From positions 3,081,605 through 3,113,604 of the forward strand of contig NZ_QFFJ01000001.1 of assembly GCF_003308995.1 (NCBI RefSeq): a stretch of 32,000 nucleotides of DNA. Direction: 5' to 3'. The notes beneath the pieces were generated by a model. That model had not been told where the DNA came from. It did no database searches and was given only the letters and a program-made list of their open reading frames with translations. Shown here piece by piece: positions 11,854 to 29,668 of this stretch. How positions within the stretch are numbered: position 1 is the stretch's first letter; each line of letters begins with the position of its first letter. Position numbers and translations under genes: made by a program. The stretch comes from Chitinophaga flava (GTDB taxonomy: Bacteria > Bacteroidota > Bacteroidia > Chitinophagales > Chitinophagaceae).

Positions 11854-11874
11854 TTGGTTCAGGCGCTCTATCAG

Positions 11875-11986: not shown

Positions 11987-12016
11987 GGGGCCGTCTCAGA
12001 AGTAATTCCGGGCCCC
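11987..12016 (-). terminator. GC-rich hairpin with T-run between repeat copy 1 and the tRNA (possible terminator insulating the tRNA)
   Basis: On the minus strand it reads GGGGCC-(18 nt)-GGCCCC followed by GTTTTTATGGGTATTTTTTTT. The stem is only 6 bp and the loop is large, so this call is weak. Confidence 0.3.
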
Positions 12017-13323: not shown

Positions 13324-13421
13324 AAACTGTTGTATTTGTTTTGTTCGGTACAAAAATAGTCAGCAGGCTCCTCCTGTCATTGTAAAAAATTTACCTGGGA
13401 TACTTGTCGGTAAGTTGAGGT

Positions 13422-14270: not shown

Positions 14271-14418
14271 GATCGGATCAGTGACTAGCAAGGTATAAAA
14301 TTTCTTGCTGTCAATTGGAAAATGTTGAAGCCCGTTAATCGCCCCAGTGGAGCACGGCCTTAAAAACTACAGATAAACTTTTTCCTCTTGCCATGCATTA
14401 TTTACCTCAAAACCAAAT

Positions 14419-14521
14419 CCTTAGATTTAGCCTGACTGGATTTATTTATGCACTTCGTATGAGCATCCTCAAAAACTGAAAAAGAAAAAGGGTGCCTCAA
14501 ATTTACTTTTGAGACACCCTC
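14419..14521. repeat. 103-bp direct repeat, copy 2 (right boundary of the cassette, 4 nt from the TonB-receptor stop)
   Basis: 101/103 identical to 12015-12117. The differences are GTATGAGCAT vs GTATGTGCAT and AAAACTGAAA vs AAAACCGAAA. Confidence 0.9.
14479..14520 (-). terminator. intrinsic terminator of the two-component/TonB-receptor operon (inside repeat copy 2)
   Basis: Same hairpin plus T-run as at 12075-12116. It starts 5 nt after the receptor stop codon (14526-14528). Confidence 0.6.
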
Positions 14522-14525
14522 GTTA

Positions 14526-16952
14526 TCAGAATTTATAGCTATATCCCAGTCGGAAAACCTGTGTTTCGTAATTGTCTGTACTCACTACCGAAAAGCCATC
14601 TCCCCGCACTTGCCGTTTGATACGCAGCGTATTAAAGATATCACTGGCATTCACAAATAGTTCTCCTTTTCCTTGCTGGATCAGCTTTTTAGCCCCCAGG
14701 TCCACGGAGAAGCGGGAACCAATTTCTCCCTGTGGAATGATATCCTTAGCCAGATAAATACCGGTCACCTGAAGTTCTGTTTTAGCCGGCAGATGAAACA
14801 GTCCATTCAGCTTGGCATTGCCGGAAGTAAGCTGTTGTTTGGCAGCAGTATAGAAGGTCGGTACCGGATATTTGTTTTCCACGGTAAAGGCATCAATGAT
14901 ATTGCGATATACGTTCACGTTAGCATTCAACGAAAACCAGGCTGTCACCTCCTTATTCAGTACGGCCTCTATACCAGAATTATAGCTACGGCCTGCGTTC
15001 TGGTAGATATTGTAGATAATATCACTTCCTGGCGCCAGTGTGCCAATACGGGTGATGGTTCCATCAGTCATACGATGGTACAACGCCGAATAGAAGCTAC
15101 CGGTACGCCAACTGGTTTTGTATCCCAGTTCAAAAGTATTGGTGAACTGCGGCCGCAGCGCAGGATTACCTACTTTCAGCATTTCCGGTTCATCATATTT
15201 GGGGAAAATACGGATATCACCTTCATCCGGCCGGTCTACTCTTCGGTTGTAGAAGAAAGAGATTTTATTGGCATCATTCAGCTTATAAGCCAGGCGTACA
15301 TTAGGGAAAGGCTGTACATAGTTGTAGCCATCGCTTTTATAGGTATTGTGATCGGGGTTGACAGTGTAATTCAGGCGTACATACTCCATACGTATGCCGG
15401 CTTCGGCTTCAATGCGATTGTTTTCATATACATAGTTGCCGTAAATAGCAGGAATAGTTTCGGCATAATCTGCCCATCCGGCGGCACCTTTATCGAGGGG
15501 TGACTGTTCTCCGGGGAAGAAACGCATATTGGTGGGTATCACTCTTCTGCGGAGCTTCAGTCCACTTTCCACACGGCCATGACGTAGCGGCCGCACGTAG
15601 TCTACATTCAGATCAGCCACGTGTTCATCGGCTATCAGCATAAAGGTATCTTTCCCGATGTAGGTAGTGCGGTTATCGGTCAGAAAATATTTTTCATCTT
15701 CCCGATGGAATGTATAGTTGAAATTGATGTTCAGCAGGTGGCCCGGCTGCCGGAACTTATGCTGATAGGCCGCCATGGCTGTGAAAGCAGAGTTCACTTC
15801 ATCTTCATGAAATTGCCATAACCTTCTTCTTTCCGTTAATTTACCGTTGAAGTAAGGGATATCACCATCATCAAGAACACGCTCACGGCTGTATAATCCG
15901 GACACTGTGAGGGTATTACGATCATCGATATTCCAGTCGACGCCTGTTTTTACAGAGCCGTCATAAGTGCGGCGGTTGCGTTTTACCTGTTGCCGCACGG
16001 TGTCACCATTATCGTATATACGTTCTGCGAACTCGCTTTTATTGAGGGTTTTCATGTATAGCCAATCGCCCTGAAAGAAAGCATTGATCTTATTCTTCCG
16101 GTAGTTGAGCGACAGGGACGGATTAATTTTAGGGGTAGCCTGGTACTGAGGTCTTATGCCGGGCAGGTTTTCTTCCTTTTGCCACAATGCGCCCAGGCCG
16201 GTGGTGAGACCTATTTTACCATTAAAGCCTTCCTGTTTGTTTTTCTTGTAAATGATGTTGATGATGCCTGCGTTACCATTGGCATCGTATCTGGCGGAGG
16301 GGTTGTTGATGATCTCGATCCGTTCGATAGCGGAAGCCGGGATATTATCAAGGCCTGACTGGTTACCAAAACCGGTGAGAGCGGTTTGTTTACCATCGAT
16401 GAGGATGGTCACCCGGTCGCTGCCGCGCAGCTGCACTTTACCATCCTGGCTGGTAGTAATGCCCGGCAGATTTTTCATAGCCTGCAATACAGAACCGCCT
16501 TGCTGGCTCATATTGTTTTCCAGCGAAAAGATCTTTTTATCCATTTTAGTGTCAATGCCAGCTTGCTGAGCGGTCACTTCCACTTCATTGAGGGTGCGGG
16601 CGTTTTCCTTCAGTTCTATGGAACCCAGGTCCAGAAAGGCACTGAGTGATCCCACCTGCACCGGGAGTTGTTTTACTTCATAGCCCAGATAGGTGGTCTC
16701 CAGGAAATAATTGCCGCTACTTATGGCAGACAATGAAAAGCGGCCATCTTCACCTGTAATGGTGCCAGCCGCCAGGCTGCTGTCTTTTGTGTGCTTTAAA
16801 GTCACATTTACAAAAGGCAGTACGGTTTTATTCTTTCCTTCTTTTATAATTCCGGATACCACTACTTTTCTATCCTGGGCGAACAGTGCGCCCTGAAAAG
16901 CTATCAGTGCCACAGCTATCTGAATCAGGCAATTGGTCATTCTCTTCGGCAT
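14526..16952 (-). CDS. TonB-dependent receptor / outer-membrane beta-barrel protein with CarboxypepD_reg-like N-terminal domain
   Basis: Signal peptide MPKRMTNCLIQIAVALIAFQGALFAQ, then VSGIIKEGKNKTVLPFVNVTLK...GRFSL (carboxypeptidase-regulatory-like). A plug-like region follows (IERIEIINNPSARYDANGNAGIINII), and the C-terminus RLGYSYKF ends in an aromatic residue. The track start at 16985 is a TTG; the ATG at 16952 gives a proper signal peptide. Confidence 0.85.
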   Translation of the reverse strand: MPKRMTNCLIQIAVALIAFQGALFAQDRKVVVSGIIKEGKNKTVLPFVNVTLKHTKDSSLAAGTITGEDGRFSLSAISSGNYFLETTYLGYEVKQLPVQVGSLSAFLDLGSIELKENARTLNEVEVTAQQAGIDTKMDKKIFSLENNMSQQGGSVLQAMKNLPGITTSQDGKVQLRGSDRVTILIDGKQTALTGFGNQSGLDNIPASAIERIEIINNPSARYDANGNAGIINIIYKKNKQEGFNGKIGLTTGLGALWQKEENLPGIRPQYQATPKINPSLSLNYRKNKINAFFQGDWLYMKTLNKSEFAERIYDNGDTVRQQVKRNRRTYDGSVKTGVDWNIDDRNTLTVSGLYSRERVLDDGDIPYFNGKLTERRRLWQFHEDEVNSAFTAMAAYQHKFRQPGHLLNINFNYTFHREDEKYFLTDNRTTYIGKDTFMLIADEHVADLNVDYVRPLRHGRVESGLKLRRRVIPTNMRFFPGEQSPLDKGAAGWADYAETIPAIYGNYVYENNRIEAEAGIRMEYVRLNYTVNPDHNTYKSDGYNYVQPFPNVRLAYKLNDANKISFFYNRRVDRPDEGDIRIFPKYDEPEMLKVGNPALRPQFTNTFELGYKTSWRTGSFYSALYHRMTDGTITRIGTLAPGSDIIYNIYQNAGRSYNSGIEAVLNKEVTAWFSLNANVNVYRNIIDAFTVENKYPVPTFYTAAKQQLTSGNAKLNGLFHLPAKTELQVTGIYLAKDIIPQGEIGSRFSVDLGAKKLIQQGKGELFVNASDIFNTLRIKRQVRGDGFSVVSTDNYETQVFRLGYSYKF

Positions 16953-16996
16953 AATATATTCTGTTGAAAATAAATGATGCCACAAAGTTGACCTTC

Positions 16997-17016
16997 AATT
17001 TGGAAGAAATTTGGAA
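16997..17016 (-). promoter_or_regulatory. tandem direct repeat TTCCAAATT-TC-TTCCAAATT (11-bp phase), candidate response-regulator site upstream of the receptor gene
   Basis: Plus-strand AATTTGGAA occurs at 16997-17005 and 17008-17016, directly after the kinase stop (17018-17020) and 45-64 nt upstream of the ATG at 16952. A TAnnTTTG-like box (minus-strand CAACTTTG, 16983-16990) lies just downstream. Confidence 0.3.
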
Positions 17017-17017
17017 T

Positions 17018-18286
17018 TCAGAAATCGATGCAGAATTGATGTAGCTGGTTTTCAAATGTGTAATACACCTGCCAGTGATAACGTTGGCAGATCTGCTGAA
17101 CAATAGCCAGTCCAAGGCCACTACCGGGACTTTGAGGAGATCCCGCCGTAAAACGCTTAAACAGATTACCCGTATCCAGTGAAATACTACCTGTATTGGC
17201 TATACGAAGTTTTCCTGGAAGGAGATGAACAATAATTTTCCCTCCCGGATTTACATAGCGGGCGGCATTCAGCAGCAGGTTATTGAGCAAAATCTCTACC
17301 AGCACTTTATTACCTTCTATGTTAATACCAGACTGTATATGTTGTTCTATCTGCAGGGATTTGTGAGCAAACAAGTCGAACAGTGGAGCAATACAATCTT
17401 CCAGCAACTCACTTAAACAAATGTTTTCTTTCTGAAGGAACTGGTGGTTTTCTATTCTGGCCAGCAGCAGCAGGTTTTTATTGATACGGGTCACCTTCAT
17501 CAGAGCTTTGATGGACTCTTCCACCAGCAAGGATTGTTTATCGTTCAGTGGCTGGCTTTGCAATAACAAGTCCAGCTTGGATTTGGCGATAGCTAGTGGT
17601 GTCTGCAACTCATGCGAAGCATTTTCCGTGAACTCTTTTTGTTGCTGATAGGTGGAGATATTTTCGTTGATCAGCTGCTGTAAACTGTTATTTAGCGTTT
17701 CAAACTCGGCGATGTTGGTTTTATCGAAAGAAATCTGTTGTTGCCGGTTGAGATCAAAACCAGCTATTTTATGAAGGGTATTGTAAAACGGCTGCCACAG
17801 GCGCCTGGACGCCCTTTTATTGAGTAGTACCAGTCCTGCCAGCAGGAGTATAAAAAATAGGATGGTCACCAGCGTAATAGCGAGGATTGTTTCGTGGGTT
17901 TCCTCCATATTGGTTTCTACCGTGAGACTGTAGGGTTGACTGTTGACTGTAAAAGAAGATACCAATCCATGAAAACGGTTGATACCTGTAGCATTGCGAC
18001 GGTAGATATTGTAAGTACTGTCTGGCTTTACCATCGCTGCTCTGCGGATAGCAGCATCCGGCTGCAACTGATTCCAGGTGTGGATATGATGGTCGAGGGC
18101 GCTGTCACTGCTGTAAGCCTTGTGAATATTGGCTTTTATAGTCTCTGCAACAATTTTATTATGCTCATGTAACTCGTTCATCCAGATATTATCCACGATA
18201 TAATAATAGGCAGGAATACTGCATACCAATACAAAAAAGGCATACAGCGAAAATACTTTCAGCGATTTACTCAGCAGTTTTTTCAT
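17018..18286 (-). CDS. sensor histidine kinase (HisKA/HATPase_c)
   Basis: Two TM segments. H-box ENASHELQTPLAIAKSKLDLL, N-box LLNNLLLNAARY, G-box GSGLGLAIVQQI. The ATG at 18286 overlaps the regulator stop (ATGA), implying translational coupling. The track start at 18295 is a GTG. Confidence 0.88.
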   Translation of the reverse strand: MKKLLSKSLKVFSLYAFFVLVCSIPAYYYIVDNIWMNELHEHNKIVAETIKANIHKAYSSDSALDHHIHTWNQLQPDAAIRRAAMVKPDSTYNIYRRNATGINRFHGLVSSFTVNSQPYSLTVETNMEETHETILAITLVTILFFILLLAGLVLLNKRASRRLWQPFYNTLHKIAGFDLNRQQQISFDKTNIAEFETLNNSLQQLINENISTYQQQKEFTENASHELQTPLAIAKSKLDLLLQSQPLNDKQSLLVEESIKALMKVTRINKNLLLLARIENHQFLQKENICLSELLEDCIAPLFDLFAHKSLQIEQHIQSGINIEGNKVLVEILLNNLLLNAARYVNPGGKIIVHLLPGKLRIANTGSISLDTGNLFKRFTAGSPQSPGSGLGLAIVQQICQRYHWQVYYTFENQLHQFCIDF

Positions 18287-18957
18287 ACTTCCCACTTATA
18301 TCCGGTACCATAAACGGTTTTAAGGTAATTGCCTGCTCCGGCTTCTGTCAGCTTACGTTTCAGGTTTTTAATATGAGCATATACAAAATCGAAGTTATCC
18401 AACATATCGGCAATATCACCTGAAAGATGCTCTGCCAGTGCCATTTTGGAGATGACCCGATTTTTGTTGCCGATAAAATATAGTAAGAGATTGAACTCTT
18501 TTTTGGTGAGTGGCACCGGTTCTTCGTTGACAGATACGGTTTTGGCGGGCAGATCTATTTTTAATTCATTAAAAATGACGGTGTTGGCATTTCCGAAATT
18601 TTTTCTTCGGATGACAGAATAGATTCTGGCGGCCAGCTCCGGCAGATGGAAGGGCTTGGCAAGATAATCATCTGCTCCCAGCTGCAGACCAGCTATTTTA
18701 TCTTCCATAGCACCTTTGGCAGAGATGATAATGACACCTTCCTGCTTTTGCTGTTTTTTCAGTTCTTCCAGAATAGCCATACCATTGCCTCCCGGCAGCA
18801 TCAGATCCAGCAGAATACAGTCGTATTCGTAGATGGAGATTTTCTCAACCGCCTCATCGAAGGTGGCAGCAAACTCGCACAGGTAGTTCTCTCCGGCCAG
18901 ATAGTCCGCGATACTTTGTGCCAGTTCCTGTTCATCTTCGATAATCAAGATTTTCAT
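18283..18957 (-). CDS. OmpR/PhoB-family response regulator
   Basis: The receiver domain (MKILIIEDE...CILLDLMLPGGNG...KP) is followed by a winged-helix output domain (LTKKEFNLLLYFIGNKNRVISK...VYGTGYKW). Confidence 0.9.
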   Translation of the reverse strand: MKILIIEDEQELAQSIADYLAGENYLCEFAATFDEAVEKISIYEYDCILLDLMLPGGNGMAILEELKKQQKQEGVIIISAKGAMEDKIAGLQLGADDYLAKPFHLPELAARIYSVIRRKNFGNANTVIFNELKIDLPAKTVSVNEEPVPLTKKEFNLLLYFIGNKNRVISKMALAEHLSGDIADMLDNFDFVYAHIKNLKRKLTEAGAGNYLKTVYGTGYKWEV

Positions 18958-18977
18958 ACCGGCAAGTTATGCGAATG

Positions 18978-18996
18978 ATTCTGAAAAAATTCTGAA
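18978..18996 (-). promoter_or_regulatory. tandem direct repeat TTCAGAAT-TTT-TTCAGAAT (11-bp phase), candidate autoregulatory site upstream of the response regulator
   Basis: Plus-strand ATTCTGAA occurs at 18978-18985 and 18989-18996, 21-39 nt upstream of the ATG at 18957. It shares the core TTC-NN-AAT with the repeat at 16997-17016. Confidence 0.3.
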
Positions 18997-19014
18997 TTCA
19001 AGACAGGGGAGGGA

Positions 19015-20118
19015 TCATACCCGCCCCAGCAGCATGGCTTCGTCGGAGAAATTACGGTAGGCCCTTCCATTACCGAATCCTTCAGGGTTGATGGCATGGG
19101 CTTTTTTTCTGTTACGGAAAAAAACTTTTCGGCCCAGATAAATGGCCCGTTGCAACAGAAAAGTATCCCGCAACGCACCGGATGTGATCCGGTAAAAGGT
19201 ACGCTGATCGTCGGCAGACAGGGCGTCATTGGTCTCCCGGGTTAGTTGCAGGTATTTATGACCGTTTTCCCTGTATAGCTGTATGATATTGTCTGTTTCC
19301 CGATAGGTGCCGGTATATCGTTTTTTAGGCTTCAGTTCATCATCTGTGCTCTGATAGTGCAACAGGTCTCTGTCTACATAAAAACGTTCAAATGTGTGGT
19401 CATTCTGCAGGCATATCACCTCTGAAGTATCTTCACAATAGTGGCCTACCAGCAGATCGGTCATCCGGGTGGTTGTAAAACCGGAGGCGATGCGCATGGT
19501 ATCATCATGGCGGATGGCCTGCAGATAGGCCGGGTCACGGATGATGACCTTCTTTTTGCCATTGGCCACCAGACGGCCTTTGAAGTCCTGATCTTCATAA
19601 CCGTAGTCCATCACGCTCTCATCATATCCACGGAGCGCATTAAAATCGTCCCGGAGAACGCAGATGCGGCCTTGTACGTCCCACCATTTTTTGCCTGGGC
19701 CGATACCAGCCGGCGACATAAAACAAGGATACTCCCGGAGAAAAGTCTGATGAATATATGTTGCAAAGCCTTGTCCGGTGTAGTTATCAGCGTCTACGCT
19801 ACAGAGGATATCGCCGGAAGCCAGCCGGAAAGCCATATTCTTGGCATGGCTCATATGAAAATAAGCAGGGTCCGGATTATGATAGTATACCACTACACCT
19901 GATTCGATATAAGGCCGCAGTTCCTGTCGGGCCCATTGGTCCAGATCATCCCGGGAACCGTAGTTCAATAGCACAAATTCCAGCGGACTATAACCGGCAT
20001 TGTCCTGGATGTTTTGAAGCAGTGTTTTTTTCAGGTGCATGGTCCGGTTCATACACACCGTGCAGAAAGATATTTTATGTTGCAACATTTTCTTTAATGG
20101 GTGAGATGCATTTAGCAT
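19015..20118 (-). CDS. GT2-like (GT-A fold) glycosyltransferase with C-terminal extension
   Basis: ISFCTVCMNR, EFVLLNYGSRDD and AKNMAFRLASGDILCSVDADNY (DxD) follow the family-2 glycosyltransferase pattern. The C-terminal ~170 aa is unassigned. Confidence 0.6.
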   Translation of the reverse strand: MLNASHPLKKMLQHKISFCTVCMNRTMHLKKTLLQNIQDNAGYSPLEFVLLNYGSRDDLDQWARQELRPYIESGVVVYYHNPDPAYFHMSHAKNMAFRLASGDILCSVDADNYTGQGFATYIHQTFLREYPCFMSPAGIGPGKKWWDVQGRICVLRDDFNALRGYDESVMDYGYEDQDFKGRLVANGKKKVIIRDPAYLQAIRHDDTMRIASGFTTTRMTDLLVGHYCEDTSEVICLQNDHTFERFYVDRDLLHYQSTDDELKPKKRYTGTYRETDNIIQLYRENGHKYLQLTRETNDALSADDQRTFYRITSGALRDTFLLQRAIYLGRKVFFRNRKKAHAINPEGFGNGRAYRNFSDEAMLLGRV

Positions 20119-20215
20119 AACAAGGAAGAAGGTGCATTGTTTGAAGGGGTTATTGCAAAAATGTGAACTTATTATTAACTTCCTGATGGTTCCACGATTT
20201 ACACCGCTACCGCTT

Positions 20216-20223
20216 TAGATTTG
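20216..20223 (+). promoter_or_regulatory. Bacteroidetes-type -7 promoter box (TAGATTTG, consensus TAnnTTTG)
   Basis: Exact match to TAnnTTTG, 54 nt upstream of the ATG at 20277, in the divergent intergenic region. This is a single short motif. Confidence 0.25.
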
Positions 20224-20276
20224 CAGCGTTTTTTAAAATTCTTTTCAACCATTTATATACGCTTAAACAACACCCT

Positions 20277-21542
20277 ATGAAACATTCTGTTTATCGGATT
20301 CCACTGTTATTATCCGTTTGTTTGGCTGCCTGTAATAAAAACATGGTAGACCAGGTGTCGCCACCACGTACGCAGCAGCAACAGTCAGCACAAGTAAGCC
20401 CATTGGCCGCCAGCACTGTTACTTTTACAGACGAGAGTAGTTTTGTGAACAGTCTTTCTTCCTATGGATTTAAAACGCCGGACCAGCTTAACCTCAACCG
20501 GATAGCCTCTACCAGTGGTTATAATACGGTATATGGGTTTAATATTCCGGCAGCCAATCAGGTGACCGGTTTCAAATGGAACAGCGGCGACGAACAGACC
20601 CAGGACTGGCGTCCACAGGGAATTACCGGCTTCAGCTGGGGAGGAAAAAAATTCCTGCTGGTAACCTGGTATGGCGTTGATCCCAGCACTATTGCCGGCA
20701 TCAACAACCAACATAAAGGAGTTCGTGTATCCCTGGTAGATATCAGCGATATGAGCAATATAACGTACAGGCATATACTGCTGGTACAAAACGCAGCCAA
20801 TATGTCTAACTCCGCATTGTATAAGGCTTCCAATCCCTATACCCAGCTGGCATCGTTTTGCCCGGTTACCATCCATGCGGGTGGAGTGGCCTATTATGCA
20901 GGTAAGATATACGTAGCCGATACCAACCTGGGCATCCGCGTATTTGACCTCAACACGATGGTATCTGCCGCCGGTGACTCCAGCGAAAGCCGTATTGGTA
21001 AAGAAAGTAATGGAGATCTCAAAGCGTTCAACTACGGATACATCCTGCCGCAGATAGGCTATTACAAAATCACCAATGCCAAACCATTCTCCTGTATTGA
21101 ACTGGGAGAGGGAGCCACTCCGGGTGAAAAATATCTGTGGACCGGTCAGTATATCACTTCTTCCGAAACAGCCATACCACAGGTTTTCGGGTTTCCGATC
21201 GATGCCAGCGGACAGGTGAGCACCAGCACACAGCCTACTATCATCACCCCCGTTGACAACGACAGCGGCCATGTATATGGCATGCAAGGCGTTTTCAGAG
21301 CCGGTAGCAAAACGTTTATGACTACCACCGGCAACAGCTCCTACCTTGGCTCTACTGCCCGCCTGGTACGTTATAGCGACGGCACCACCGCCGGTACCCG
21401 TTACCGCTGGCCTCATGGTGCTGAAGACCTTTTCCGTGACAGTACCACAGGCTACCTCTGGAACCTTACTGAATACGAAACAGCCAAATACGGACAAGAT
21501 AACAGAGTGGTGTTTGCAGTGCGGTTATCAGATTATCAATAA
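20277..21542 (+). CDS. hypothetical lipoprotein
   Basis: 421-aa ORF with a lipobox-like signal (LLLSVCLAAC-NK). ATG start and a strong terminator downstream. No catalytic motif recognised. Confidence 0.6.
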   Translation: MKHSVYRIPLLLSVCLAACNKNMVDQVSPPRTQQQQSAQVSPLAASTVTFTDESSFVNSLSSYGFKTPDQLNLNRIASTSGYNTVYGFNIPAANQVTGFKWNSGDEQTQDWRPQGITGFSWGGKKFLLVTWYGVDPSTIAGINNQHKGVRVSLVDISDMSNITYRHILLVQNAANMSNSALYKASNPYTQLASFCPVTIHAGGVAYYAGKIYVADTNLGIRVFDLNTMVSAAGDSSESRIGKESNGDLKAFNYGYILPQIGYYKITNAKPFSCIELGEGATPGEKYLWTGQYITSSETAIPQVFGFPIDASGQVSTSTQPTIITPVDNDSGHVYGMQGVFRAGSKTFMTTTGNSSYLGSTARLVRYSDGTTAGTRYRWPHGAEDLFRDSTTGYLWNLTEYETAKYGQDNRVVFAVRLSDYQ

Positions 21543-21568
21543 TCAAATAAATGAATAGTCAAATAATC

Positions 21569-21600
21569 AAGAAGCATATCGCATCAACGATATGCTTCTT
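21569..21600 (+). terminator. intrinsic terminator after the lipoprotein gene
   Basis: Perfect 13-bp stem AAGAAGCATATCG / CGATATGCTTCTT with 6-nt loop CATCAA, 27 nt after the stop. The T-tail is weak (CCATTTCT). Confidence 0.55.
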
Positions 21601-21652
21601 CCATTTCTGAAATGTTTTATCTTGAACGTTTGTTAATTCAACCTATTTATCT

Positions 21653-22498
21653 ATGAAACATTTTCTTCTTATTGTAGCAGCACCATTCGTTTGTACCTTA
21701 ACCACCCAGGCACAAACTCTTGACAACGTTTTAAAGAATGGTAATACAACTACCGAAACCATCATTACTTCGAATGCAGAAGGCCTGAAAATAGCAAACA
21801 ACAATGCCTTTATATCAGGCTGGAATGCTCAAAACACTGCCAGGACAGGCTATTTGCAGTTCAACTCTTCAGGGAACATATCACTGTCTGCCGAGGGCGC
21901 CAGAAGTATTCTTTTACTGACCAATCAACAACCCAGAGTTACTATAACAGAAAATGGTTATGTAGGGATTGGTACAACACGGCCCGCGCAGAAATTTGTA
22001 GTTTCCAATAACGAACAGGAAGGACTGGAGGTCTATCTTGAAAACAATGGCATCGTAGGGCTACAAGCCTATAACCGGCAAACGTCCCACTATATGCCTA
22101 TGTATATCGATGCCTCCCATCTTGCCATCACATACGGCAGTGTAAGTATTGGCACACCTTCTCCCAAATCAGAACTTACTGTTAACGGCACTATCACCAC
22201 AAAAAAAATAAAAGTCACTGCCGAAAACTGGCCCGACTATGTATTTCGTAAAGACTACGTACTCCCTTCCTTACAGGATGTGGAAAACTTTATAACTACC
22301 CGTCAGCACTTGCCAGGCATTCCTGCTGCCGCTACCGTAGAAAAGGAAGGGCTGGAACTGGGAGAAATCAACCAGAAGCTGCTGCAGAAAATTGAAGAAC
22401 TAACGCTATACCTGATTGATGAACATAAAAAAAATAAAGAACTGGAAAAACAGGTTTCTTTATTGAATGAACGACTAACAAAACTGGAGCGGCCATAA
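21653..22498 (+). CDS. secreted fibre-like protein with conserved C-terminal WPDYVF...HLPGIP module and coiled coil
   Basis: Signal peptide MKHFLLIVAAPFVCTLTTQAQ. The C-terminus (NWPDYVFRKDYVLPSLQDVENFITTRQHLPGIPAAATVEKEGLELGEINQKLLQKIEELTLYLI) is a module I recall from Bacteroidota proteins annotated as tail-fibre-domain or hypothetical. Confidence 0.5.
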   Translation: MKHFLLIVAAPFVCTLTTQAQTLDNVLKNGNTTTETIITSNAEGLKIANNNAFISGWNAQNTARTGYLQFNSSGNISLSAEGARSILLLTNQQPRVTITENGYVGIGTTRPAQKFVVSNNEQEGLEVYLENNGIVGLQAYNRQTSHYMPMYIDASHLAITYGSVSIGTPSPKSELTVNGTITTKKIKVTAENWPDYVFRKDYVLPSLQDVENFITTRQHLPGIPAAATVEKEGLELGEINQKLLQKIEELTLYLIDEHKKNKELEKQVSLLNERLTKLERP

Positions 22499-22693
22499 TC
22501 GTGAACCAGACACATGACAAGTTTGAGTTTTTCCTAAAATCTGCTTATTTATGTAATTTTACCTGCTTTTACAACGCTCATCGTTGCAAAATCCATAAAC
22601 CATGCTTATCCAAGGGGAACCTGGTTCATCCCGAACAATTCGGTATACCTGTGCCTATTTCCAAGATCGCATCCAAATTAAAACACAACAAAA

Positions 22694-23482
22694 ATGGTTG
22701 TACTAACAAAACTCTACGGTCAAACCAGCAACAACTTTTTACAATTTATACACCTGGATTCATTTTGCAGGGAAAACAATATCCCTTTCCATAGTCCCTA
22801 TTTCAGGAAATATTTTGATCAGTATCCTGCATTGCAGTCTTATGGTGTTAACTATTCGAAAGTGCTGATGAAGTTTTTCATCAGAACGAAACTGTATAAA
22901 GAATTTAGTTTTGTTGATGACACTCAGATTTCTGCTTATAAAAATGCGATCCTTACGAGAAAACGATTGTTTTGTGAAGGCTGGTACTTCAGCAGCAAAG
23001 AAACTGTTGAAAAAAACAGAAGCCTTTATCAGCAGCTATTTACACCAAACATCGATCAGCAGGATTTCCACAATAAATACCTGAAAAAAGAAAATAATGA
23101 AACCATCATTGGTGTTCATATCCGTCGTGGTGATTACAAAGAGTTCCAGGGTGGTGAATATTATTTTGAAGATGATGTTTATATTGATAAAATAAAACAG
23201 CTGTTGAACAACCTGAATACGCCACATAAGGTGATCATCTTCACTAATGATGATGCGCTGAATAAAGCTAATTACACGCAGCATTTTAATGTGTTGTTCT
23301 CAGAAAATCCAGTGCATGTTGACCATTTCCTGATGTCACGCTGTGACTACCTGATCGGGCCTGTGAGCTCATTTTCGTTATGGGCCAGTTATATCGGAGA
23401 AACACCTTTATTTCATATTCGTACAGCCAATGACGTTGTCACGCTGGACAAATTCAAAATTTGCGACGGAAACTGGTTTTAA
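22694..23482 (+). CDS. GT11-like (alpha-1,2-fucosyltransferase-like) glycosyltransferase
   Basis: GVHIRRGDY (the HxRRGDY signature), IIFTNDD, and DHFLMSRCDYLIGPVSSFSLWASYIG (compare D..LMS.C.h.I.sNSTFSWWaAyL in GT11). The N-terminus VVLTKLYGQTSNNFLQFIH parallels GGLGNQMFQYA. Confidence 0.55.
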   Translation: MVVLTKLYGQTSNNFLQFIHLDSFCRENNIPFHSPYFRKYFDQYPALQSYGVNYSKVLMKFFIRTKLYKEFSFVDDTQISAYKNAILTRKRLFCEGWYFSSKETVEKNRSLYQQLFTPNIDQQDFHNKYLKKENNETIIGVHIRRGDYKEFQGGEYYFEDDVYIDKIKQLLNNLNTPHKVIIFTNDDALNKANYTQHFNVLFSENPVHVDHFLMSRCDYLIGPVSSFSLWASYIGETPLFHIRTANDVVTLDKFKICDGNWF

Positions 23483-23505
23483 ACAAAACCAGTTTCTTGT
23501 TTTTC
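23471..23505 (+). terminator. intrinsic terminator overlapping the GT11-like stop codon
   Basis: Perfect 10-bp stem AACTGGTTTT / AAAACCAGTT with 4-nt loop AAAC (the stop TAA lies at 23480-23482), followed by TCTTGTTTTT. Confidence 0.55.
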
Positions 23506-23632
23506 AGATAAACTTATCTTATATTTAAATATCTATCCAACGATTCATATCAGAATAACCGTCACATAAAACGTACCTGTAATTTTTCCTGATTATCCAC
23601 GATTTTCATTTATAACCCAAAATCCAAACATC

Positions 23633-23815
23633 ATGAAAAAGAAAAAAGTAACCCTCAATCCCAAACTGTTCATCAACAAACTTACTATCACTTCCTTAAC
23701 CACAGAACAACAGGAGAAAGTGGCTGGTGGCGCAACTGCAGGTGTTATCTGCATGACCACCGAGACACGTCGTCCAACTGATTGTTCTGCTACTCCAAAT
23801 CACGCTTGCTGCTGA
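23633..23815 (+). CDS. RiPP/bacteriocin-like precursor peptide with Bacteroidetes-type double-glycine leader and Cys/Thr-rich core
   Basis: 60 aa. The leader is MKKKKVTLNPKLFINKLTITSLTTEQQEKVAGG (GG at nt 23726-23731). The 27-aa core ATAGVICMTTETRRPTDCSATPNHACC has 4 Cys and 7 Ser/Thr. ATG start, its own upstream AT-rich region, and a hairpin downstream. Confidence 0.6.
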   Translation: MKKKKVTLNPKLFINKLTITSLTTEQQEKVAGGATAGVICMTTETRRPTDCSATPNHACC

Positions 23816-23841
23816 TATCAGTAGTCTAAGTTCTTATTTGA

Positions 23842-23902
23842 GTATCCCCGTTTCGGAAGGTGATTTGGTTTTCAGGTAAGATCATCCTCCGAATGGGGAT
23901 AC
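23842..23902 (+). terminator. long imperfect stem-loop after the peptide gene (possible terminator/attenuator)
   Basis: GTATCCCC-G-TTTCGGAAGG ... CCTCCGAA-T-GGGGATAC gives about 16 paired positions with bulges and a ~25-nt loop, then CTTGTGTTTGT. It starts 27 nt after the stop. Confidence 0.4.
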
Positions 23903-23958
23903 TTGTGTTTGTAAGATTACAAACTACCACGCCACTTAGTAACTTTATCAAATTACTT

Positions 23959-24364: not shown

Positions 24365-27300
24365 ATGATCACTAGCAAAGAACGGCTTAGAAAACATCTT
24401 GCGATGTTTTTCCTTGCTCTTCTGGTTTACCAGATTGGATTTCCAGCTGCAGCCTATGCACTTACTTCCGGGCCCACAGCACCGGAAGCTACCAGTTTTG
24501 AGCCTGTGGATACTACAGATATGGTAAATCTTCAAACCGGAGATTTCACCTATAACCTTCCATTATTAGAAGTACCGGGTCCGGAAGGAGGCTACCCATT
24601 ATCATTATCTTATCATGCCGGTATTCAGGTAGGAGAAGATGCAAGCTGGACGGGACTCGGATGGACGCTGAATCCCGGAGCAATTACCCGTAACGTAAAC
24701 GGCTATCCGGATGACTGGTTTTCAGAAACACAATTAAGAAGAGATTATTGGGAAGGTGGTCAAACCAATACTTATAACGTAGGCGTCAGCGTTGGTATCG
24801 CCAATACGCCGGCCACTGTTAGTTTTGGCCTTGCTTTTTCCCAGGACACCTACCAGGGATTTGGTGTTGGTGGCAGTGTGGGAGTAGGCGCTAACTACGG
24901 CCCTCTTCATATCGGTGCAGAAGTAGGAGTGACCCCATTTGGGCAATCATATCAGTCTATAGGCTTCAGCGCTTCCACTTCATCCGGTGGAAGTCTGGGT
25001 GTATCTGTAAGCGGTGGGCTTTCCACCAGCGGCGGATATGCCGGTGTGAGCGCAGGAAATTCTTTCCTGGGTGCCAGTATGGGAACAAATGGTCTTTCTA
25101 TGATTGTTGGAGAAGGTATCACTGGTACTACCAATAATGACAGGTCAGGGGAGATCTCTACTAAATCCAGCGGTCTTTCTGTAGATATCCCTATCGGATA
25201 TGTTAATATAAGGCTGGGGTATAACCACACCCGTTACTGGTCAGATGAGAATGTTAATATACCCGCTCACGGCAGCTTGAATCTCACCGGCTGGAATATG
25301 CTGGACAATCATGCCTATGATTGTTATTCCCTGCTAAACTATGATCCCGCCAACTATAACGCCACTAATATCGTCGATAACAGCGACCCGGATGTATTGC
25401 AGGGTGGCACCTTTCCGGATTATGACAACTATGTTGTGACCGCTCAGGGTCTTGCCGGCACCATGCGGCCTTATGGCTTCCAGAACTACGTGGCAAGGCA
25501 AAACAGAAGCAATAGCAACCGTACTACGATTATGTACGTATGTCCCGGGCAAACCAATACCTTTAATATGCTGGGTAAGCAGCCCCAGTTCAGGTTTGAT
25601 AACGACTTCTCCAATCAATACCGCCAGAATTTCAACGATATTGATGTGGTAAATGTATATGCCATGAATCTGCCGGCTCCATTTGACCCAAATCCCGTTT
25701 ATGGAAATAATGATGGTACTTATGGTTATAACACGGCTACCACACAGCTCGCAGGTTCCCGCAGTATTCGTACGATAGATTATGCCACACTCTTCGGAGC
25801 CAGTGATAAGAAGGGATTCCTGTATCCATCAGGAACAACCGGTTTTGTGTATAATTCCGCACTGGCTAAAAGCATAGGAGGATTTGCGGTCACAAACAGC
25901 AGCGGTGTAACCTACCACTACAGTTTGCCTGCCTATTCCTATAATGAAAGCATTTACTCTGAAAAAATAGATCCTTCTAAAGGACCAGGGCAAAGTAAAA
26001 GCTTTAACCGTCAGGTAAAACCGGGTAAGTATGCTTATACCTGGTACCTGACAGGTGTTACAGGCCCCGATTATGTTGACAAGAATAATAATGGCATTCT
26101 TGATGAAGGCGACTGGGGATACTGGGTAAAGTTTGAATATGGTAAATGGACAGATACCTATTGCTGGAGAAATCCGGAAACAGGCTTTGCTCCCGATATT
26201 GATAACAAATTCCAGAATGCATCAAAGGGACAAAAAGAAGTTTATTACCTCAATGCCATCAAAACAAGGAGCCATACAGCCTTGTTTGTGAAAGATCTCC
26301 GTACAGATGCGCGTGGAGCTTCGCCCACCATTATGCAAAGCACAGGTGATACAGAAAGTGTTGGAGCCTATGATGGCAACTCTGCCTATAGCCTCAGCCT
26401 GAATCGCATCCTGTTGTATAACAATGCAGATCTTCCTGCTTTGAATATGAACAGCAGTAGTGAACTGAATATCGCAGCACATTACGCAGGCAATGTATTA
26501 GATAAGTACGACGTGGCAGATCCCAGCTTCCTGCAGAAAGCATTCAGAGTGATTGACTTCAAATATGATCTCAGCCTTTGTTTTTATACGCCAAATAGTT
26601 TCAGCGGAAGTTCAACCCGCGTGACAGCTGGTAAGCTGACCTTAAATCAGTTAGTAGTACGCGGCAAAGGTGGGGCCTGTATGCTCCCTTCAACAGATTT
26701 TCAATATGAAGTGGATGATACAAATATGGGCACCATCACAGCCTCCACTGCACCAGGAAGCAATAGTATCGGAAACATTACCTGCTCCAATATCGCAAAC
26801 GGCCAGTATAACGTAGGTGATATTCTCAATATTTATATAGGTCGCGGACGCTATAGCGGAGTGATCACAAAAAAATATTCGGCTACTTCATATGACGTGA
26901 AATACTTCCCGGGTATGGCGTCCGGAGGTGGCTCCGGCACTTGTTACATTACAAAAAATCCAATCTATCTGCAGGATGCAAAAGATATCTGGGGATTGTA
27001 CAAATCTGATTATGATGCCGCTGCTTATGCACAAAACAGCAATATTGGTGGTGCAAGAACCTATGCTTCTGCAGGAAGTGCGGATGCATGGTCTCTCAGA
27101 AAAATCACTACGCAACTGGGAGCCAAGATTAGAGTGGAGTATGAATCAGATGTATACAACAAGGCAGTATTAAATAGCTCTTCATCATCTGTTATCAACA
27201 ATTTTAGTTACAACTCAACCACCAAGCAGCTGAGCTTTAAGGTTAACAGCATTGGAGATGGTTTGTCTCTGAGTAATACCTATAAGGTGGGCACAAAATT

Positions 27301-29668
27301 AAACGCATTATTGATACAACCTGCAGATATTACTATACAGTCTAAAAACAGTGATGGTAGCTCTTGGCCGCTGACCATTTTGGATGGAGATCAATATGTT
27401 ACAAGAACGGCCATCCTGGGAGGGAATGAATTTGTGATAACAGCAGTGGATGATGTTAATAAGACTATTACTGTTAACTGCTCTACACTTAATGAGCTAA
27501 ATATTCCAAATACAGTCCCCAATACCGATGTTATTAAGGTTGAGTGTAAAGTCTATTCTACAGGAAATCTTTTCTACAGCAACGATTTCAACCGCCCAGG
27601 CGGTGGTCTTAGGGTGAAAACACTTTCCGTACAGTCTACACAGAATACTGCTACCACGATGTATGACTACTCCAATGCCGACAATCCCGCAATTAGTTCA
27701 GGGGTAACCTCATACGAACCATCTGTATTTGATTATTGCGAGGTATCCCGTTATCCAGCGGTTGCGAGTGGCGAAAATCAGTATAAAAAAGAACTGTACA
27801 AGAATATCAACTACCTGCTTACTATTGCCAGGGAGGTTACTCCTCCCGGAGTAGTGTATAAGAATGTATCCGTTCGTACAAAAGTGACTTCTCCTGATGG
27901 TACAGAACGCGCTACAGCAGGGCGTACTGTTTATGAATTTGAGGTATTCAATGAAAACATGATTTCACGTCATAAAGTCGGTTTGGGAACTACCTCCGGC
28001 TATTATCATAATAATCCAAGCTCCGGAAGTCTGAATGTCGGTAACAACCAGACAATTCAGAACCTAACAGCTGCCGTAGGATTATTAAAACGGACAACCA
28101 CTTATGATGTGAATGATAAACCATTGGCCAGTACTAACTATATGTTTGAGCATGGCACTTTTGGTTCACCCAACCCTGCTTTCCTGGATATCTATTACAA
28201 TGGTTTAAATAAGTACAATTACCAGGGTGTTACTTCGGAGAGATCTTTTGAAGAAAAATACGTGTATAATCCAGCCACCAGCCAGAATAAGGTAATGCTG
28301 ACCATGAGTGCAAAAGAAACTTATCCGGTAATACCCACAGGTGTAACAACAACAGATTATAAAACGGGAACATCCACTGCCAAATACTATAATGGATACG
28401 ACTTCTATAGTGGAGAGATTACTAAAACTGTCACAAGGGATATTTACGGTAACGCATTTGCTACCGAAGTCATTCCCGCCTACAGGAAGTATCCTCAAAT
28501 GGGGCTGATGGTCAATAATAGTGCTAACAAGAATATGCTGACTCAAACTGCCGGCTCATATACTTATGTGCTGGGCAATGGTGTAAATGCAGGCGTAGTC
28601 AGTGCGAGCGCAACCATCTGGGGAAATCAGACTCCGGTACTCAATCCTGATAACAGTGGAACTACATTGGTCCAAAACACTTCATCCGTTGGTAATGTAT
28701 GGAGAAAACAACAGGAATACATCTGGCGTCCGGATGTAATCAAACCTGATGGAGTAGTGCCTATGGCGGAATTTACAGACATCAACTGGACCAATCCGCT
28801 GGCATCCAATTCCGCGTGGAAAAAAGCAGTAGAGGTAACATTGTACAGCGCCAATTCCCACCCATTGGAAACTGTAGACATCAACGGTGCTTATGGCGCA
28901 ACCAAATATGGATACAAAGATAGCCGCAAGGTGCTGACAGTTACACCAGCTCAGTACAGCCAGGTTGCTTTCTCCGGTGCTGAAGATGAGTTGATCGGAT
29001 CTGCGTTCAGCTCAGGAGTGAATCCTGGTGATGGAACCATTGAAACCAGCACCACCTTCCCTGCAACCCTGGCACATACGGGGTATAACAGCCTTCGTAC
29101 AGCAGCTGCCAAACAAGGTTTTAACTATACCGTTCCTGTTGCTGCCTCACAACTGAATGTACAATACCAGGCAAGTGTTTGGGTAAAAAGTGTAGCTGGT
29201 GGCCAGCCCTCAGCTAATATCTATTACCAGGTGAATGGTGGCACCCCAACACCGGCAACAGTAACGGCTACACGTAAGTCCGGCGACTGGTACTTATTGA
29301 CCTTGGTAACGCCCACCTCTGCTTCAGCCAGTGCTGGCTCCAGCATTAAATTCGGATGCACTAATACAGGTGCAACAGATGTGGTATTTGATGATTTCAG
29401 AGTACATCCGGTAAGCGCCAGCTCGACTGCTTTCGTATATGATAAAACCAGTGGAGAATTAACTTACATACTGGACAATAAGAATATCTATACCAGATAT
29501 AATTATGATTCAGGCGGGAAATTAATCGGTACTTATAAGGAAATTATTGGAACTGGCGAGAAGAAAGTCTATGAGTATGAATATAATTATGGCAAAGGCT
29601 GTATCGCTGCCAATAATTTGAGCATCCCCAAAGTAGATTTTTATAAACAGCATTTTGGGTTGATATAA
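24365..29668 (+). CDS. giant secreted protein with SpvB/TcaC-like N-terminal domain, G/S/V-rich low-complexity segment and C-terminal CBM-like jelly-roll
   Basis: 1767 aa with signal peptide HLAMFFLALLVYQIGFPAAAYA. The N-terminus (TSGPTAPEATSFEPVDTTDMVNLQTGDFTYNLPLLEVPGPEGGYPLSLSYHAGIQVGEDASWTGLGWTLNPGAITRN) follows the SpvB/TcB N-terminal pattern. AHTGYNSLR...WVKS...VVFDDFRVHP (nt ~29070-29410) resembles CBM4/9-type modules. The C-terminus has a YD-like repeat (YTRYNYDSGGKLIGTY). Confidence 0.7.
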   Translation: MITSKERLRKHLAMFFLALLVYQIGFPAAAYALTSGPTAPEATSFEPVDTTDMVNLQTGDFTYNLPLLEVPGPEGGYPLSLSYHAGIQVGEDASWTGLGWTLNPGAITRNVNGYPDDWFSETQLRRDYWEGGQTNTYNVGVSVGIANTPATVSFGLAFSQDTYQGFGVGGSVGVGANYGPLHIGAEVGVTPFGQSYQSIGFSASTSSGGSLGVSVSGGLSTSGGYAGVSAGNSFLGASMGTNGLSMIVGEGITGTTNNDRSGEISTKSSGLSVDIPIGYVNIRLGYNHTRYWSDENVNIPAHGSLNLTGWNMLDNHAYDCYSLLNYDPANYNATNIVDNSDPDVLQGGTFPDYDNYVVTAQGLAGTMRPYGFQNYVARQNRSNSNRTTIMYVCPGQTNTFNMLGKQPQFRFDNDFSNQYRQNFNDIDVVNVYAMNLPAPFDPNPVYGNNDGTYGYNTATTQLAGSRSIRTIDYATLFGASDKKGFLYPSGTTGFVYNSALAKSIGGFAVTNSSGVTYHYSLPAYSYNESIYSEKIDPSKGPGQSKSFNRQVKPGKYAYTWYLTGVTGPDYVDKNNNGILDEGDWGYWVKFEYGKWTDTYCWRNPETGFAPDIDNKFQNASKGQKEVYYLNAIKTRSHTALFVKDLRTDARGASPTIMQSTGDTESVGAYDGNSAYSLSLNRILLYNNADLPALNMNSSSELNIAAHYAGNVLDKYDVADPSFLQKAFRVIDFKYDLSLCFYTPNSFSGSSTRVTAGKLTLNQLVVRGKGGACMLPSTDFQYEVDDTNMGTITASTAPGSNSIGNITCSNIANGQYNVGDILNIYIGRGRYSGVITKKYSATSYDVKYFPGMASGGGSGTCYITKNPIYLQDAKDIWGLYKSDYDAAAYAQNSNIGGARTYASAGSADAWSLRKITTQLGAKIRVEYESDVYNKAVLNSSSSSVINNFSYNSTTKQLSFKVNSIGDGLSLSNTYKVGTKLNALLIQPADITIQSKNSDGSSWPLTILDGDQYVTRTAILGGNEFVITAVDDVNKTITVNCSTLNELNIPNTVPNTDVIKVECKVYSTGNLFYSNDFNRPGGGLRVKTLSVQSTQNTATTMYDYSNADNPAISSGVTSYEPSVFDYCEVSRYPAVASGENQYKKELYKNINYLLTIAREVTPPGVVYKNVSVRTKVTSPDGTERATAGRTVYEFEVFNENMISRHKVGLGTTSGYYHNNPSSGSLNVGNNQTIQNLTAAVGLLKRTTTYDVNDKPLASTNYMFEHGTFGSPNPAFLDIYYNGLNKYNYQGVTSERSFEEKYVYNPATSQNKVMLTMSAKETYPVIPTGVTTTDYKTGTSTAKYYNGYDFYSGEITKTVTRDIYGNAFATEVIPAYRKYPQMGLMVNNSANKNMLTQTAGSYTYVLGNGVNAGVVSASATIWGNQTPVLNPDNSGTTLVQNTSSVGNVWRKQQEYIWRPDVIKPDGVVPMAEFTDINWTNPLASNSAWKKAVEVTLYSANSHPLETVDINGAYGATKYGYKDSRKVLTVTPAQYSQVAFSGAEDELIGSAFSSGVNPGDGTIETSTTFPATLAHTGYNSLRTAAAKQGFNYTVPVAASQLNVQYQASVWVKSVAGGQPSANIYYQVNGGTPTPATVTATRKSGDWYLLTLVTPTSASASAGSSIKFGCTNTGATDVVFDDFRVHPVSASSTAFVYDKTSGELTYILDNKNIYTRYNYDSGGKLIGTYKEIIGTGEKKVYEYEYNYGKGCIAANNLSIPKVDFYKQHFGLI

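What the first reader, a model, noticed from the sequence alone, without database searches (positions are those of the whole stretch)
23633..23815. Orphan double-glycine-leader, Cys/Thr-rich peptide gene with no maturase within reach
Seen: the 33-aa leader (Lys-rich start, KLFINKLTITSL amphipathic stretch, ending AGG) precedes a 27-aa core ATAGVICMTTETRRPTDCSATPNHACC. The core has 4 Cys, including a terminal CC, and 7 Ser/Thr. Established: this architecture is typical of Bacteroidota class I lanthipeptide precursors (pinensin-type) and of the TIGRFAMs GG-Bacteroidales natural-product-precursor family. However, I recognise no LanB/LanC/LanM, radical-SAM/SPASM, YcaO or C39-peptidase ABC transporter anywhere in the 32 kb. 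The neighbours are a GT11-like glycosyltransferase that ends in its own terminator, a long hairpin, an AT-rich spacer, and then the SpvB-like/RHS pair. Inference: this is either a precursor modified in trans by a distant cluster, or a peptide with a different, undescribed maturation or role linked to the downstream giant secreted proteins.
Basis: partly seen in the sequence, partly recalled or inferred. Interest (0 to 1): 0.7.

Follow-up and report, generated by a model that had tools for sequence, protein, structure and literature searches.

The report
Stand-alone class I lanthipeptide precursor gene
This is a real, conserved gene for a lanthipeptide (ring-forming antimicrobial-type peptide) precursor that sits far from its modifying enzymes, which in sister genomes lie megabases away or on another contig; it is ordinary in kind, and the suspected link to the neighbouring giant toxin-like genes is not supported.

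Summary
Its leader matches the curated class I lanthipeptide leader model NF038153 (51 bits; cut-off 22). RefSeq already names it 'class I lanthipeptide' (Chitinophaga flava and strain HK235). It is under purifying selection: 11 synonymous and 0 non-synonymous differences from HK235. It has a conserved 3' hairpin. No LanB, LanC, LanT, rSAM or YcaO gene lies in the 32 kb window, nor within +/-10 kb in five orthologous loci, so it is truly unclustered.

This is normal for the family in Chitinophagaceae. Of eight independent loci, five had no enzyme, two had LanC only and one was complete. C. eiseniae, which carries the orthologue, has a full LanC-LanB-C39 transporter cluster with same-family precursors on another contig. 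HK235, which has the identical peptide, has a published lanthipeptide BGC with an NF038153-type precursor 2.77 Mb away.

The core resembles the LanC-proximal precursors of those clusters. Synteny with HK235 ends just after the hairpin, so the giant ORF and the RHS gene are strain-specific and unrelated.

Verdict: an in-trans class I precursor, a new member of a known kind, of modest interest.

The parts
23520..23527 (+). Putative promoter -7 box (TATATTTA), about 105 nt upstream of the ATG. It is conserved as TATATTTA, TATATTAG or TAAATTAG in five orthologous loci.
   Evidence: Alignment A5. The resemblance to the Bacteroidota TAnnTTTG -7 element is from my own knowledge. This is inferred, not shown.
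23633..23731 (+). Leader peptide, residues 1-33: MKKKK start, L12-x-I-x-K16-x5-L22 motif, GG32-33 cleavage site.
   Evidence: NF038153 match to residues 1-33. LxLxKx5L...GG motif of Bacteroidetes class I LanAs (PMC7268733). Profile of enzyme-adjacent leaders, E=4.7e-13.
23732..23812 (+). Core peptide, residues 34-60: ATAGVICMTTETRRPTDCSATPNHACC. Cys at 40, 51, 59, 60. Ser/Thr at 35, 42, 43, 45, 49, 52, 54.
   Evidence: The RPTDC[ST]A.P...CC block is invariant in orthologues. Significantly similar to the LanC-proximal precursors L016_9670 (1/5000 shuffles) and L015_10001 (5/5000).
23813..23815 (+). Stop codon (TGA).
23840..23904 (+). Long 3' stem-loop followed by a U-rich tract (terminator or transcript stabiliser), conserved in all orthologous loci.
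   Evidence: -41.4 kcal/mol, z = -5.9. Equivalent hairpins in L001, L004, L005, L008. 27 pairs, 5 with compensatory double changes. No Rfam family.
23468..23497 (+). Terminator of the upstream GT11-like gene. It separates that gene from the peptide gene, so the peptide gene is a monocistronic unit.
23913..23913 (.). End of homology with the sister strain C. flava HK235. Everything downstream (spacer, 1767-aa ORF at 24365-29668, RHS-like ORF from about 29720) is strain-specific and is not part of the peptide system.
   Evidence: blastn of the window against L005. Downstream genes differ in all orthologous loci.

Best explanation
The gene encodes an unclustered class I lanthipeptide precursor (LanA) of the Bacteroidota 'L1a' leader family.

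Proposed steps:
1. It is transcribed as its own short unit, from a conserved promoter-like box to a conserved hairpin. (inferred)
2. The 33-aa leader, with its LxLxKx5L motif, is recognised by a LanB dehydratase and a LanC cyclase encoded elsewhere on the chromosome. (inferred from family membership)
3. LanB dehydrates some of the 7 core Ser/Thr residues, and LanC adds the 4 Cys to them to form up to four thioether rings. (inferred)
4. A C39-peptidase ABC transporter cuts after Gly-Gly33 and exports the 27-residue product. (inferred)

Shown:
- family membership;
- selection on the ORF;
- absence of local enzymes;
- complete or annotated L1a-type clusters elsewhere in sister genomes.

Not shown:
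- that those enzymes act on this peptide;
- that the peptide is expressed.
For: 1. Leader. NF038153 scores 51 bits against a cut-off of 22. A profile of 10 leaders physically next to LanC/LanB scores E=4.7e-13.
2. Core. It is a diverged paralogue of the precursors that sit immediately before LanC in C. eiseniae and C. nivalis.
3. Real gene. 11 synonymous and 0 non-synonymous differences from HK235, dN/dS 0.13-0.23 elsewhere, and a conserved 3' hairpin with covariation.
4. C. eiseniae. It carries the orthologue on contig 2. On contig 1 it has five L1a precursors, then LanC, a 1050-aa LanB, a C39-ABC transporter and an HlyD-like protein. RODEO lists this as a class I BGC.
5. Other orthologue-bearing genomes. 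LanC at >=90% identity is present in C. varians and sp. 22536. Their C39 transporters are too, with one gene between LanC and LanT by accession order.
6. HK235 (identical peptide, ANI 93% to C. flava). It has an antiSMASH lanthipeptide BGC at 2.599-2.622 Mb (PMC10239826 Tables S1/S2). That BGC's precursor hits NF038153, 2.77 Mb from the orphan gene (coordinates).
7. C. flava and HK235 also have an intact stand-alone LanC with all hallmark motifs.
8. Unclustered precursors are the norm in this family. Five of eight independent loci have no enzyme within 10 kb, and two have LanC only.
Against: - I could not inspect the genes of HK235 BGC14. That it contains LanB rests on antiSMASH's class I rule as I recall it.
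- The orphan leader is only about 50% identical to cluster leaders, so recognition by the distant LanB is plausible but untested.
- There are no expression or mass-spectrometry data.
- The published RiPP tables for HK235 do not list this peptide.
Confidence: 0.7

Rival explanations
1. The peptide is an unmodified (or only disulfide-bonded) double-glycine-leader peptide, either a bacteriocin or a signalling pheromone. A C39 transporter cleaves and exports it without LanB/LanC action.
For: The GG leader fits C39 export in general. Four family members sit beside LytTR-type two-component systems (L011, L012 and L013; L015), which is reminiscent of peptide-pheromone regulons. LanB was not directly seen in the window's own genome.
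Against: The leader belongs to a model built for class I lanthipeptides. The core shares its Cys/Thr scaffold with LanC-adjacent precursors. No LytTR system lies near this gene: the nearby two-component system is OmpR-type and is not conserved in orthologous loci. A LytTR system next to precursors is equally expected as a regulator of lanthipeptide production.
Confidence: 0.12
2. The gene is a decaying or silent relic of a former cluster and has no current product.
For: It lies at the edge of a rearranging region, with three different downstream contexts. There are no expression data.
Against: There is strong purifying selection on both leader and core across five species at saturating dS. The start, GG site, all four Cys and the hairpin are intact in every orthologue.
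Confidence: 0.08
3. The peptide forms a local functional module with the conserved neighbours (GT2 glycosyltransferase, 421-aa lipoprotein, GT11-like enzyme), for example as a glycosylated, glycocin-like peptide.
For: The order GT2(-)/421-422-aa protein(+)/[GT11]/peptide is conserved in all five orthologous loci.
Against: The whole left flank (RecBCD, PTH2, DUF6438) is also syntenic, so the adjacency can be simple vertical inheritance. The 421-aa protein has a lipoprotein signal and is exported. The GT2 has no detectable similarity to any solved structure, including peptide S-glycosyltransferases. GT11 is absent from three loci. The GT11 gene ends in its own terminator. Wider family members lack these neighbours.
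Confidence: 0.05
4. The peptide works with the downstream 1767-aa protein and RHS protein, for example as a toxin accessory or immunity factor.
For: Only physical adjacency in this one window.
Against: None of five orthologous loci has those genes. Downstream are AraC/glyoxalase/LCM or a beta-lactamase instead. Homology to HK235 ends at 23913. A strong hairpin and a 450-nt AT-rich spacer separate them.
Confidence: 0.02

Closest known systems
Bacteroidota class I lanthipeptide precursors with the L1a leader (NCBIfam NF038153 / Pfam PF28317 Lant_leader_dom), e.g. the five precursors of the C. eiseniae LanC-LanB-LanT cluster listed by RODEO (Walker et al. 2020, PMC7268733)
   Same: Same leader model and LxLxKx5L...GG motif. 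Same overall size. Cys/Ser/Thr-rich core. The core scaffold is shared with the LanC-proximal member.
   Different: It is encoded alone, megabases (or a contig) away from any LanB/LanC/LanT. The core ends at CC without the QIP/MIP tail. The product is uncharacterised.
Pinensins (Chitinophaga pinensis; NF038180 leader_pinensin)
   Same: Class I lanthipeptides from the same genus. The leader also ends near a GG.
   Different: A different leader family (LSIDDLKIDSF type). The orphan does not hit NF038180. The core is unrelated. Pinensin uses a split LanB (PMC7268733), whereas the L1a cluster seen here has a full-length LanB.
Prochlorosins / Nif11-leader class II lanthipeptides (one ProcM serving many precursors scattered round the genome)
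   Same: The organisational logic: a conserved leader, hypervariable cores, and precursors encoded far from the enzyme (PMC7268733). C. eiseniae has at least 14 L1a precursors at three loci and one L1a-type LanCBT cluster seen.
   Different: Class II (LanM) rather than class I (LanB+LanC). Cyanobacteria rather than Bacteroidota. An unrelated leader family. This is a 'works like' comparison, not membership.
PedA15-type class I lanthipeptides of Pedobacter lusitanus NL19
   Same: Bacteroidota class I peptides with GG leaders removable by a C39 protease domain (LahT150), as cited in PMC12328550.
   Different: I could not read the primary papers, so sequence and ring similarity are untested.

Membership tests
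Class I lanthipeptide precursor, L1a leader family (NF038153) | Leader matches the curated HMM above its cut-off | tested here: met
   51.1 bits against a cut-off of 22, E=1e-13, residues 1-33 covering the whole model. Pfam PF28317 is precomputed for the identical protein.
Class I lanthipeptide precursor, L1a leader family (NF038153) | LxLxKx5L motif and a Gly-Gly cleavage site | tested here: met
   L12-F-I14-N-K16-LTITS-L22 and G32-G33. The motif is as described in PMC7268733.
Class I lanthipeptide precursor, L1a leader family (NF038153) | Core with Cys plus Ser/Thr able to form (methyl)lanthionine | tested here: met
   4 Cys and 7 Ser/Thr. All four Cys are invariant in orthologues.
Class I lanthipeptide precursor, L1a leader family (NF038153) | LanB and LanC encoded next to the precursor (a canonical BGC) | tested here: not met
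   None in the 32 kb window or within +/-10 kb in five orthologous loci.
Class I lanthipeptide precursor, L1a leader family (NF038153) | LanB, LanC and a C39 transporter present somewhere in the same genome, with same-family precursors | tested here: inconclusive
   Met for C. eiseniae. Met for HK235 by published antiSMASH data plus the HMM result. LanC and LanT are met for C. varians and sp. 22536. For the window's presumed genome (C. flava type strain) only LanC was found.
Class I lanthipeptide precursor, L1a leader family (NF038153) | Dehydrated residues and thioether rings in the mature product | not testable with these tools
   Needs MS/MS and a thiol-alkylation assay.
Pinensin family (NF038180) | Leader matches leader_pinensin | tested here: not met
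   No hit at E<=10. Genuine pinensin and its HK235 homologue score 42.5 bits.
TIGR04149 GG_sam_targ_CFB (rSAM-modified GG-leader RiPP of Bacteroidota) / Pfam PF14406 Bacteroid_pep | Match to the family HMM, and an adjacent radical-SAM/SPASM maturase | tested here: not met
   No TIGR04149 hit at E<=10. PF14406 scores 13.6 bits against a cut-off of 25. No rSAM gene in the window.
Glycocins (sublancin/glycocin F type) | A dedicated GT2 peptide S/O-glycosyltransferase acting on the precursor | tested here: inconclusive
   A GT2 gene is a conserved neighbour, but on the opposite strand. It has no sequence similarity to any solved structure at E<=0.01. The leader belongs to a lanthipeptide family. 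Nothing positively supports this.

The most novel reading that the evidence does not exclude
Chitinophaga runs a class I counterpart of the prochlorosin system. A single L1a-type LanB/LanC/C39-transporter set would service a genome-dispersed library of precursors: enzyme-less tandem arrays, LanC-only loci, and conserved singletons such as this one. The singleton has been kept under purifying selection across species at saturating synonymous divergence, which suggests a distinct, selected product and not mere redundancy.
Probability: 0.45. Interest if true: 0.55.

Novelty: new member of a known kind. Interest (0 to 1): 0.3.

Why it matters
The peptide itself is an uncharacterised lanthipeptide from a genus rich in natural products. 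C. flava and C. eiseniae were singled out as the most chemically distinctive Chitinophaga strains in PMC9248904.

More generally, cluster-centred mining misses such genes. RODEO searches within seven genes of a LanC. The antiSMASH, PRISM and RiPPMiner tables for HK235 do not list this peptide. In my small sample most L1a precursors were unclustered, so the lanthipeptide repertoire of Chitinophagaceae is probably under-counted. One enzyme set may make many more products than its cluster suggests. That is useful for discovery and for engineering substrate-tolerant class I enzymes.

Tried and rejected
- I guessed that the 920-980-aa plus ~250-aa ORF pairs beside family members in L011-L013 were a split LanB. 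Pfam showed they are Reg_prop/His_kinase sensors plus LytTR regulators.
- The full 69-sequence family alignment was too divergent for the locus finder. A narrower leader alignment gave only 5 loci.
- Exact-product look-ups for the 1767-aa ORF, the 281-aa ORF and the two C. flava LanC versions all failed. I therefore could not place the window on a named contig or see the C. flava LanC locus.
- Single-sequence AlphaFold of the conserved 421-aa lipoprotein gave pLDDT 35, which is unusable, so I ran no fold search.
- PDB sequence searches with the 421-aa protein, the 1767-aa protein and the GT2 gave nothing useful.
- Rfam found no family for the hairpin or the 5' region.
- The sigma-70 promoter scan found nothing upstream of the gene. 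This is expected, because Bacteroidota promoters differ.
- The primary Pedobacter lusitanus paper (PMC9845027) is not held.
- Literature searches for orphan class I precursors, or for LytTR-linked Bacteroidota lanthipeptides, found nothing specific.
- Rejected readings: the RHS/giant-protein link, a glycocin-like module, pinensin-type membership and TIGR04149 membership. Reasons are given under the rival explanations and the membership tests.

Full report
**Observation**

The window holds an ATG-initiated 60-codon ORF at 23633-23815 (+). It encodes MKKKKVTLNPKLFINKLTITSLTTEQQEKVAGG|ATAGVICMTTETRRPTDCSATPNHACC.

The upstream GT11-like gene (22694-23482; PF01531) ends in its own terminator at 23468-23497. 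The peptide gene is followed by a long hairpin at about 23840-23904 (-41.4 kcal/mol, z = -5.9). An AT-rich spacer follows (GC 0.34).

**Is it a real gene?**

Yes.
- The identical protein is in RefSeq as 'MULTISPECIES: class I lanthipeptide [Chitinophaga]' (WP_113615920.1; RBL93323.1 from C. flava; also strain HK235).
- Five further orthologues at 65-77% identity exist in other Chitinophaga. The start, the GG site, all four Cys and an RPTDC[ST]A.P...CC block are invariant.
- Against the HK235 copy the window differs by 11 synonymous and 0 non-synonymous changes. Against three other species dN/dS is 0.13-0.23, in both leader and core.
- All orthologous loci keep a long 3' stem-loop: 27 pairs, 5 with compensatory double changes.
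- A TAtATTt-like box about 105 nt upstream is conserved. I read it as a Bacteroidota -7 promoter element, from memory of the consensus.
- Rfam has no family for these elements.

**What family?**

The leader hits NCBIfam NF038153 lant_leader_L1a ('class I lanthipeptide') at 51.1 bits against a cut-off of 22. It fits the LxLxKx5L...GG motif that Walker et al. described for Bacteroidetes class I LanAs (PMC7268733).

It does not hit the pinensin leader model NF038180, which genuine pinensin does. It does not hit TIGR04149 either. Pfam Bacteroid_pep is far below threshold.

An exhaustive profile search found 74 representatives. All share the leader and have hypervariable Cys/Ser/Thr-rich cores.

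**Are maturases nearby?**

No. Pfam and NCBIfam scans of every large ORF show the following genes:
- RecD, RecC and RecB;
- PTH2, DUF6438, a 2OG oxygenase, an epoxide hydrolase and AraC;
- a TonB-type outer membrane protein and an OmpR-type two-component system;
- a GT2 glycosyltransferase;
- a 421-aa lipoprotein and a 281-aa secreted protein;
- the GT11-like enzyme;
- a domain-less 1767-aa ORF and a weakly RHS/YD-like ORF.

tblastn with the C. eiseniae LanB, LanC and LanT finds nothing in the window or in any orthologous locus. The same is true within +/-10 kb of the orthologues in sp. 22536, C. eiseniae, HK235 and C. varians.

**Link to the giant/RHS pair?**

This is refuted. Downstream genes are AraC/glyoxalase/LCM in three species and a beta-lactamase in HK235. 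Nucleotide homology between the window and HK235 runs through GT11, the peptide gene and the hairpin, and stops at 23913. The 1767-aa ORF shows no SpvB domain even at E<=10.

**Where are the enzymes?**

- **C. eiseniae.** The orthologue is on contig FUWZ01000002. Contig FUWZ01000001 carries five NF038153 precursors, then LanC, a full-length 1050-aa LanB, a C39-peptidase ABC transporter and an HlyD-like protein. RODEO's supplement lists this cluster.
- **C. varians and sp. 22536.** The >=90% LanC and LanT clusters include both species, with one gene between LanC and LanT by accession order.
- **HK235.** It was published as C. flava HK235, with ANI 93.2% to the type strain (PMC10239826). It has antiSMASH lanthipeptide BGCs at 2,599,333-2,621,961 and at 3,135,929-3,161,212 (pinensin-like). 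The first contains MKKKKIQLNKKLLLKKDKIVTLNPQEQSKLAGG|VPITWFSSCCVETDEVTCPEGCVWTR. That precursor hits NF038153. By eye it is about three-quarters identical to a precursor of the C. eiseniae cluster.
- **Distances in HK235.** The orphan gene lies at 5,386,682-5,386,864 (derived). That is 2.77 Mb from this precursor.
- **Stand-alone LanC.** C. flava and HK235 also have a stand-alone LanC. In HK235 it is at 3.198 Mb, 2.19 Mb from the orphan, and outside any antiSMASH region. All hallmark LanC motifs are intact. A marginal L1a-like 67-aa gene lies beside it.

**Fit of the orphan to those enzymes**

A profile made only from the ten leaders adjacent to LanC/LanB in C. eiseniae and C. nivalis scores the orphan at E=4.7e-13. 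It finds nothing else in the window. The orphan core aligns with the precursor immediately upstream of LanC in C. eiseniae (ATRDIVCMEDTRYISSCRATRPSPNSPCC; 1/5000 composition-preserving shuffles) and in C. nivalis (5/5000). It does not align with the other core types.

**How unusual is the orphan state?**

It is not unusual in this family.

| Enzymes within +/-10 kb | Loci |
|---|---|
| None | L010-L013 and the eight-gene array L014 in C. eiseniae |
| LanC only | L015 (C. nivalis), L017 (HK235) |
| Complete LanC-LanB-LanT | L016 (C. eiseniae) |

The sample is small and not random.

**Conclusion**

The best explanation is an in-trans class I lanthipeptide precursor (confidence 0.7).

The main gaps:
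- I could not place the window on a named C. flava contig.
- I could not see LanB directly in C. flava or HK235.
- There are no expression or product data.

Rivals rank well below: an unmodified GG-leader peptide or pheromone, a silent relic, a glycosylation module with the GT neighbours, and an RHS accessory.

In kind this is a new member of a known family that NCBI already annotates. The modestly novel aspect is the apparent prochlorosin-like dispersal of class I precursors in Chitinophaga.

Noticed in passing
L011 13763-17273, L012 6236-9873, L013 10329-14004, L015 11616-13424: Four non-orthologous L1a-leader precursor loci (Taibaiella koreensis, an Edaphocola MAG, C. solisilvae, C. nivalis) sit directly beside a His_kinase (PF06580; with Reg_prop in three of them) plus a LytTR response regulator. 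This may be a recurrent regulatory or pheromone-type pairing. I found no description of it in the literature I could search.
   Followed up: partly
L014 8581-10554 (C. eiseniae FUWZ01000004): A tandem array of eight L1a-leader precursor genes with diverse cores and no Lan enzyme within +/-10 kb. With the cluster (five precursors) and the singleton orthologue, C. eiseniae has at least 14 L1a precursors at three loci.
   Followed up: partly
L017 9731-11203 (C. flava HK235, CP073766 about 3.198 Mb): A stand-alone, motif-intact LanC with no LanB or transporter within 10 kb. Next to it is a 67-aa gene whose leader is a marginal L1a match (22.0 bits against a cut-off of 22) and lacks the GG site. 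It lies outside every published antiSMASH region.
   Followed up: partly
window 24365-29668: A 1767-aa ORF with no Pfam, NCBIfam or PDB sequence match (best: DUF6531, E=0.049). It is strain-specific relative to HK235 and lies immediately upstream of an RHS/YD-like ORF (from about 29720, running off the window). The 'SpvB-like' label is not supported.
   Followed up: partly
window 12015-12117 and 14419-14521; tRNA at 11874-11947 (-): A 103-nt direct repeat (98% identical) flanks the epoxide hydrolase and AraC genes, next to a tRNA-Gly(CCC) gene. This may be the footprint of an insertion or duplication.
   Followed up: no
window 21537-22670: A 281-aa secreted protein gene (signal peptide, C-terminal coiled coil, no Pfam hit) is an insertion relative to HK235, between the 421-aa lipoprotein gene and the GT11-like gene.
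   Followed up: no
window 22671-23913: The GT11-plus-peptide segment is only 82.5% identical to HK235, whereas the flanking 12880-21536 is 94-98.7% identical. It is also AT-rich (GC 0.34-0.41). This suggests recombination or faster turnover of the segment.
   Followed up: no
window 20277-21542: A 421-aa lipoprotein (lipobox ...LSVCLAAC) with no Pfam, NCBIfam or PDB match is the most constant same-strand neighbour of the peptide gene in all five species. Its function is unknown. The single-sequence structure model failed (pLDDT 35).
   Followed up: partly
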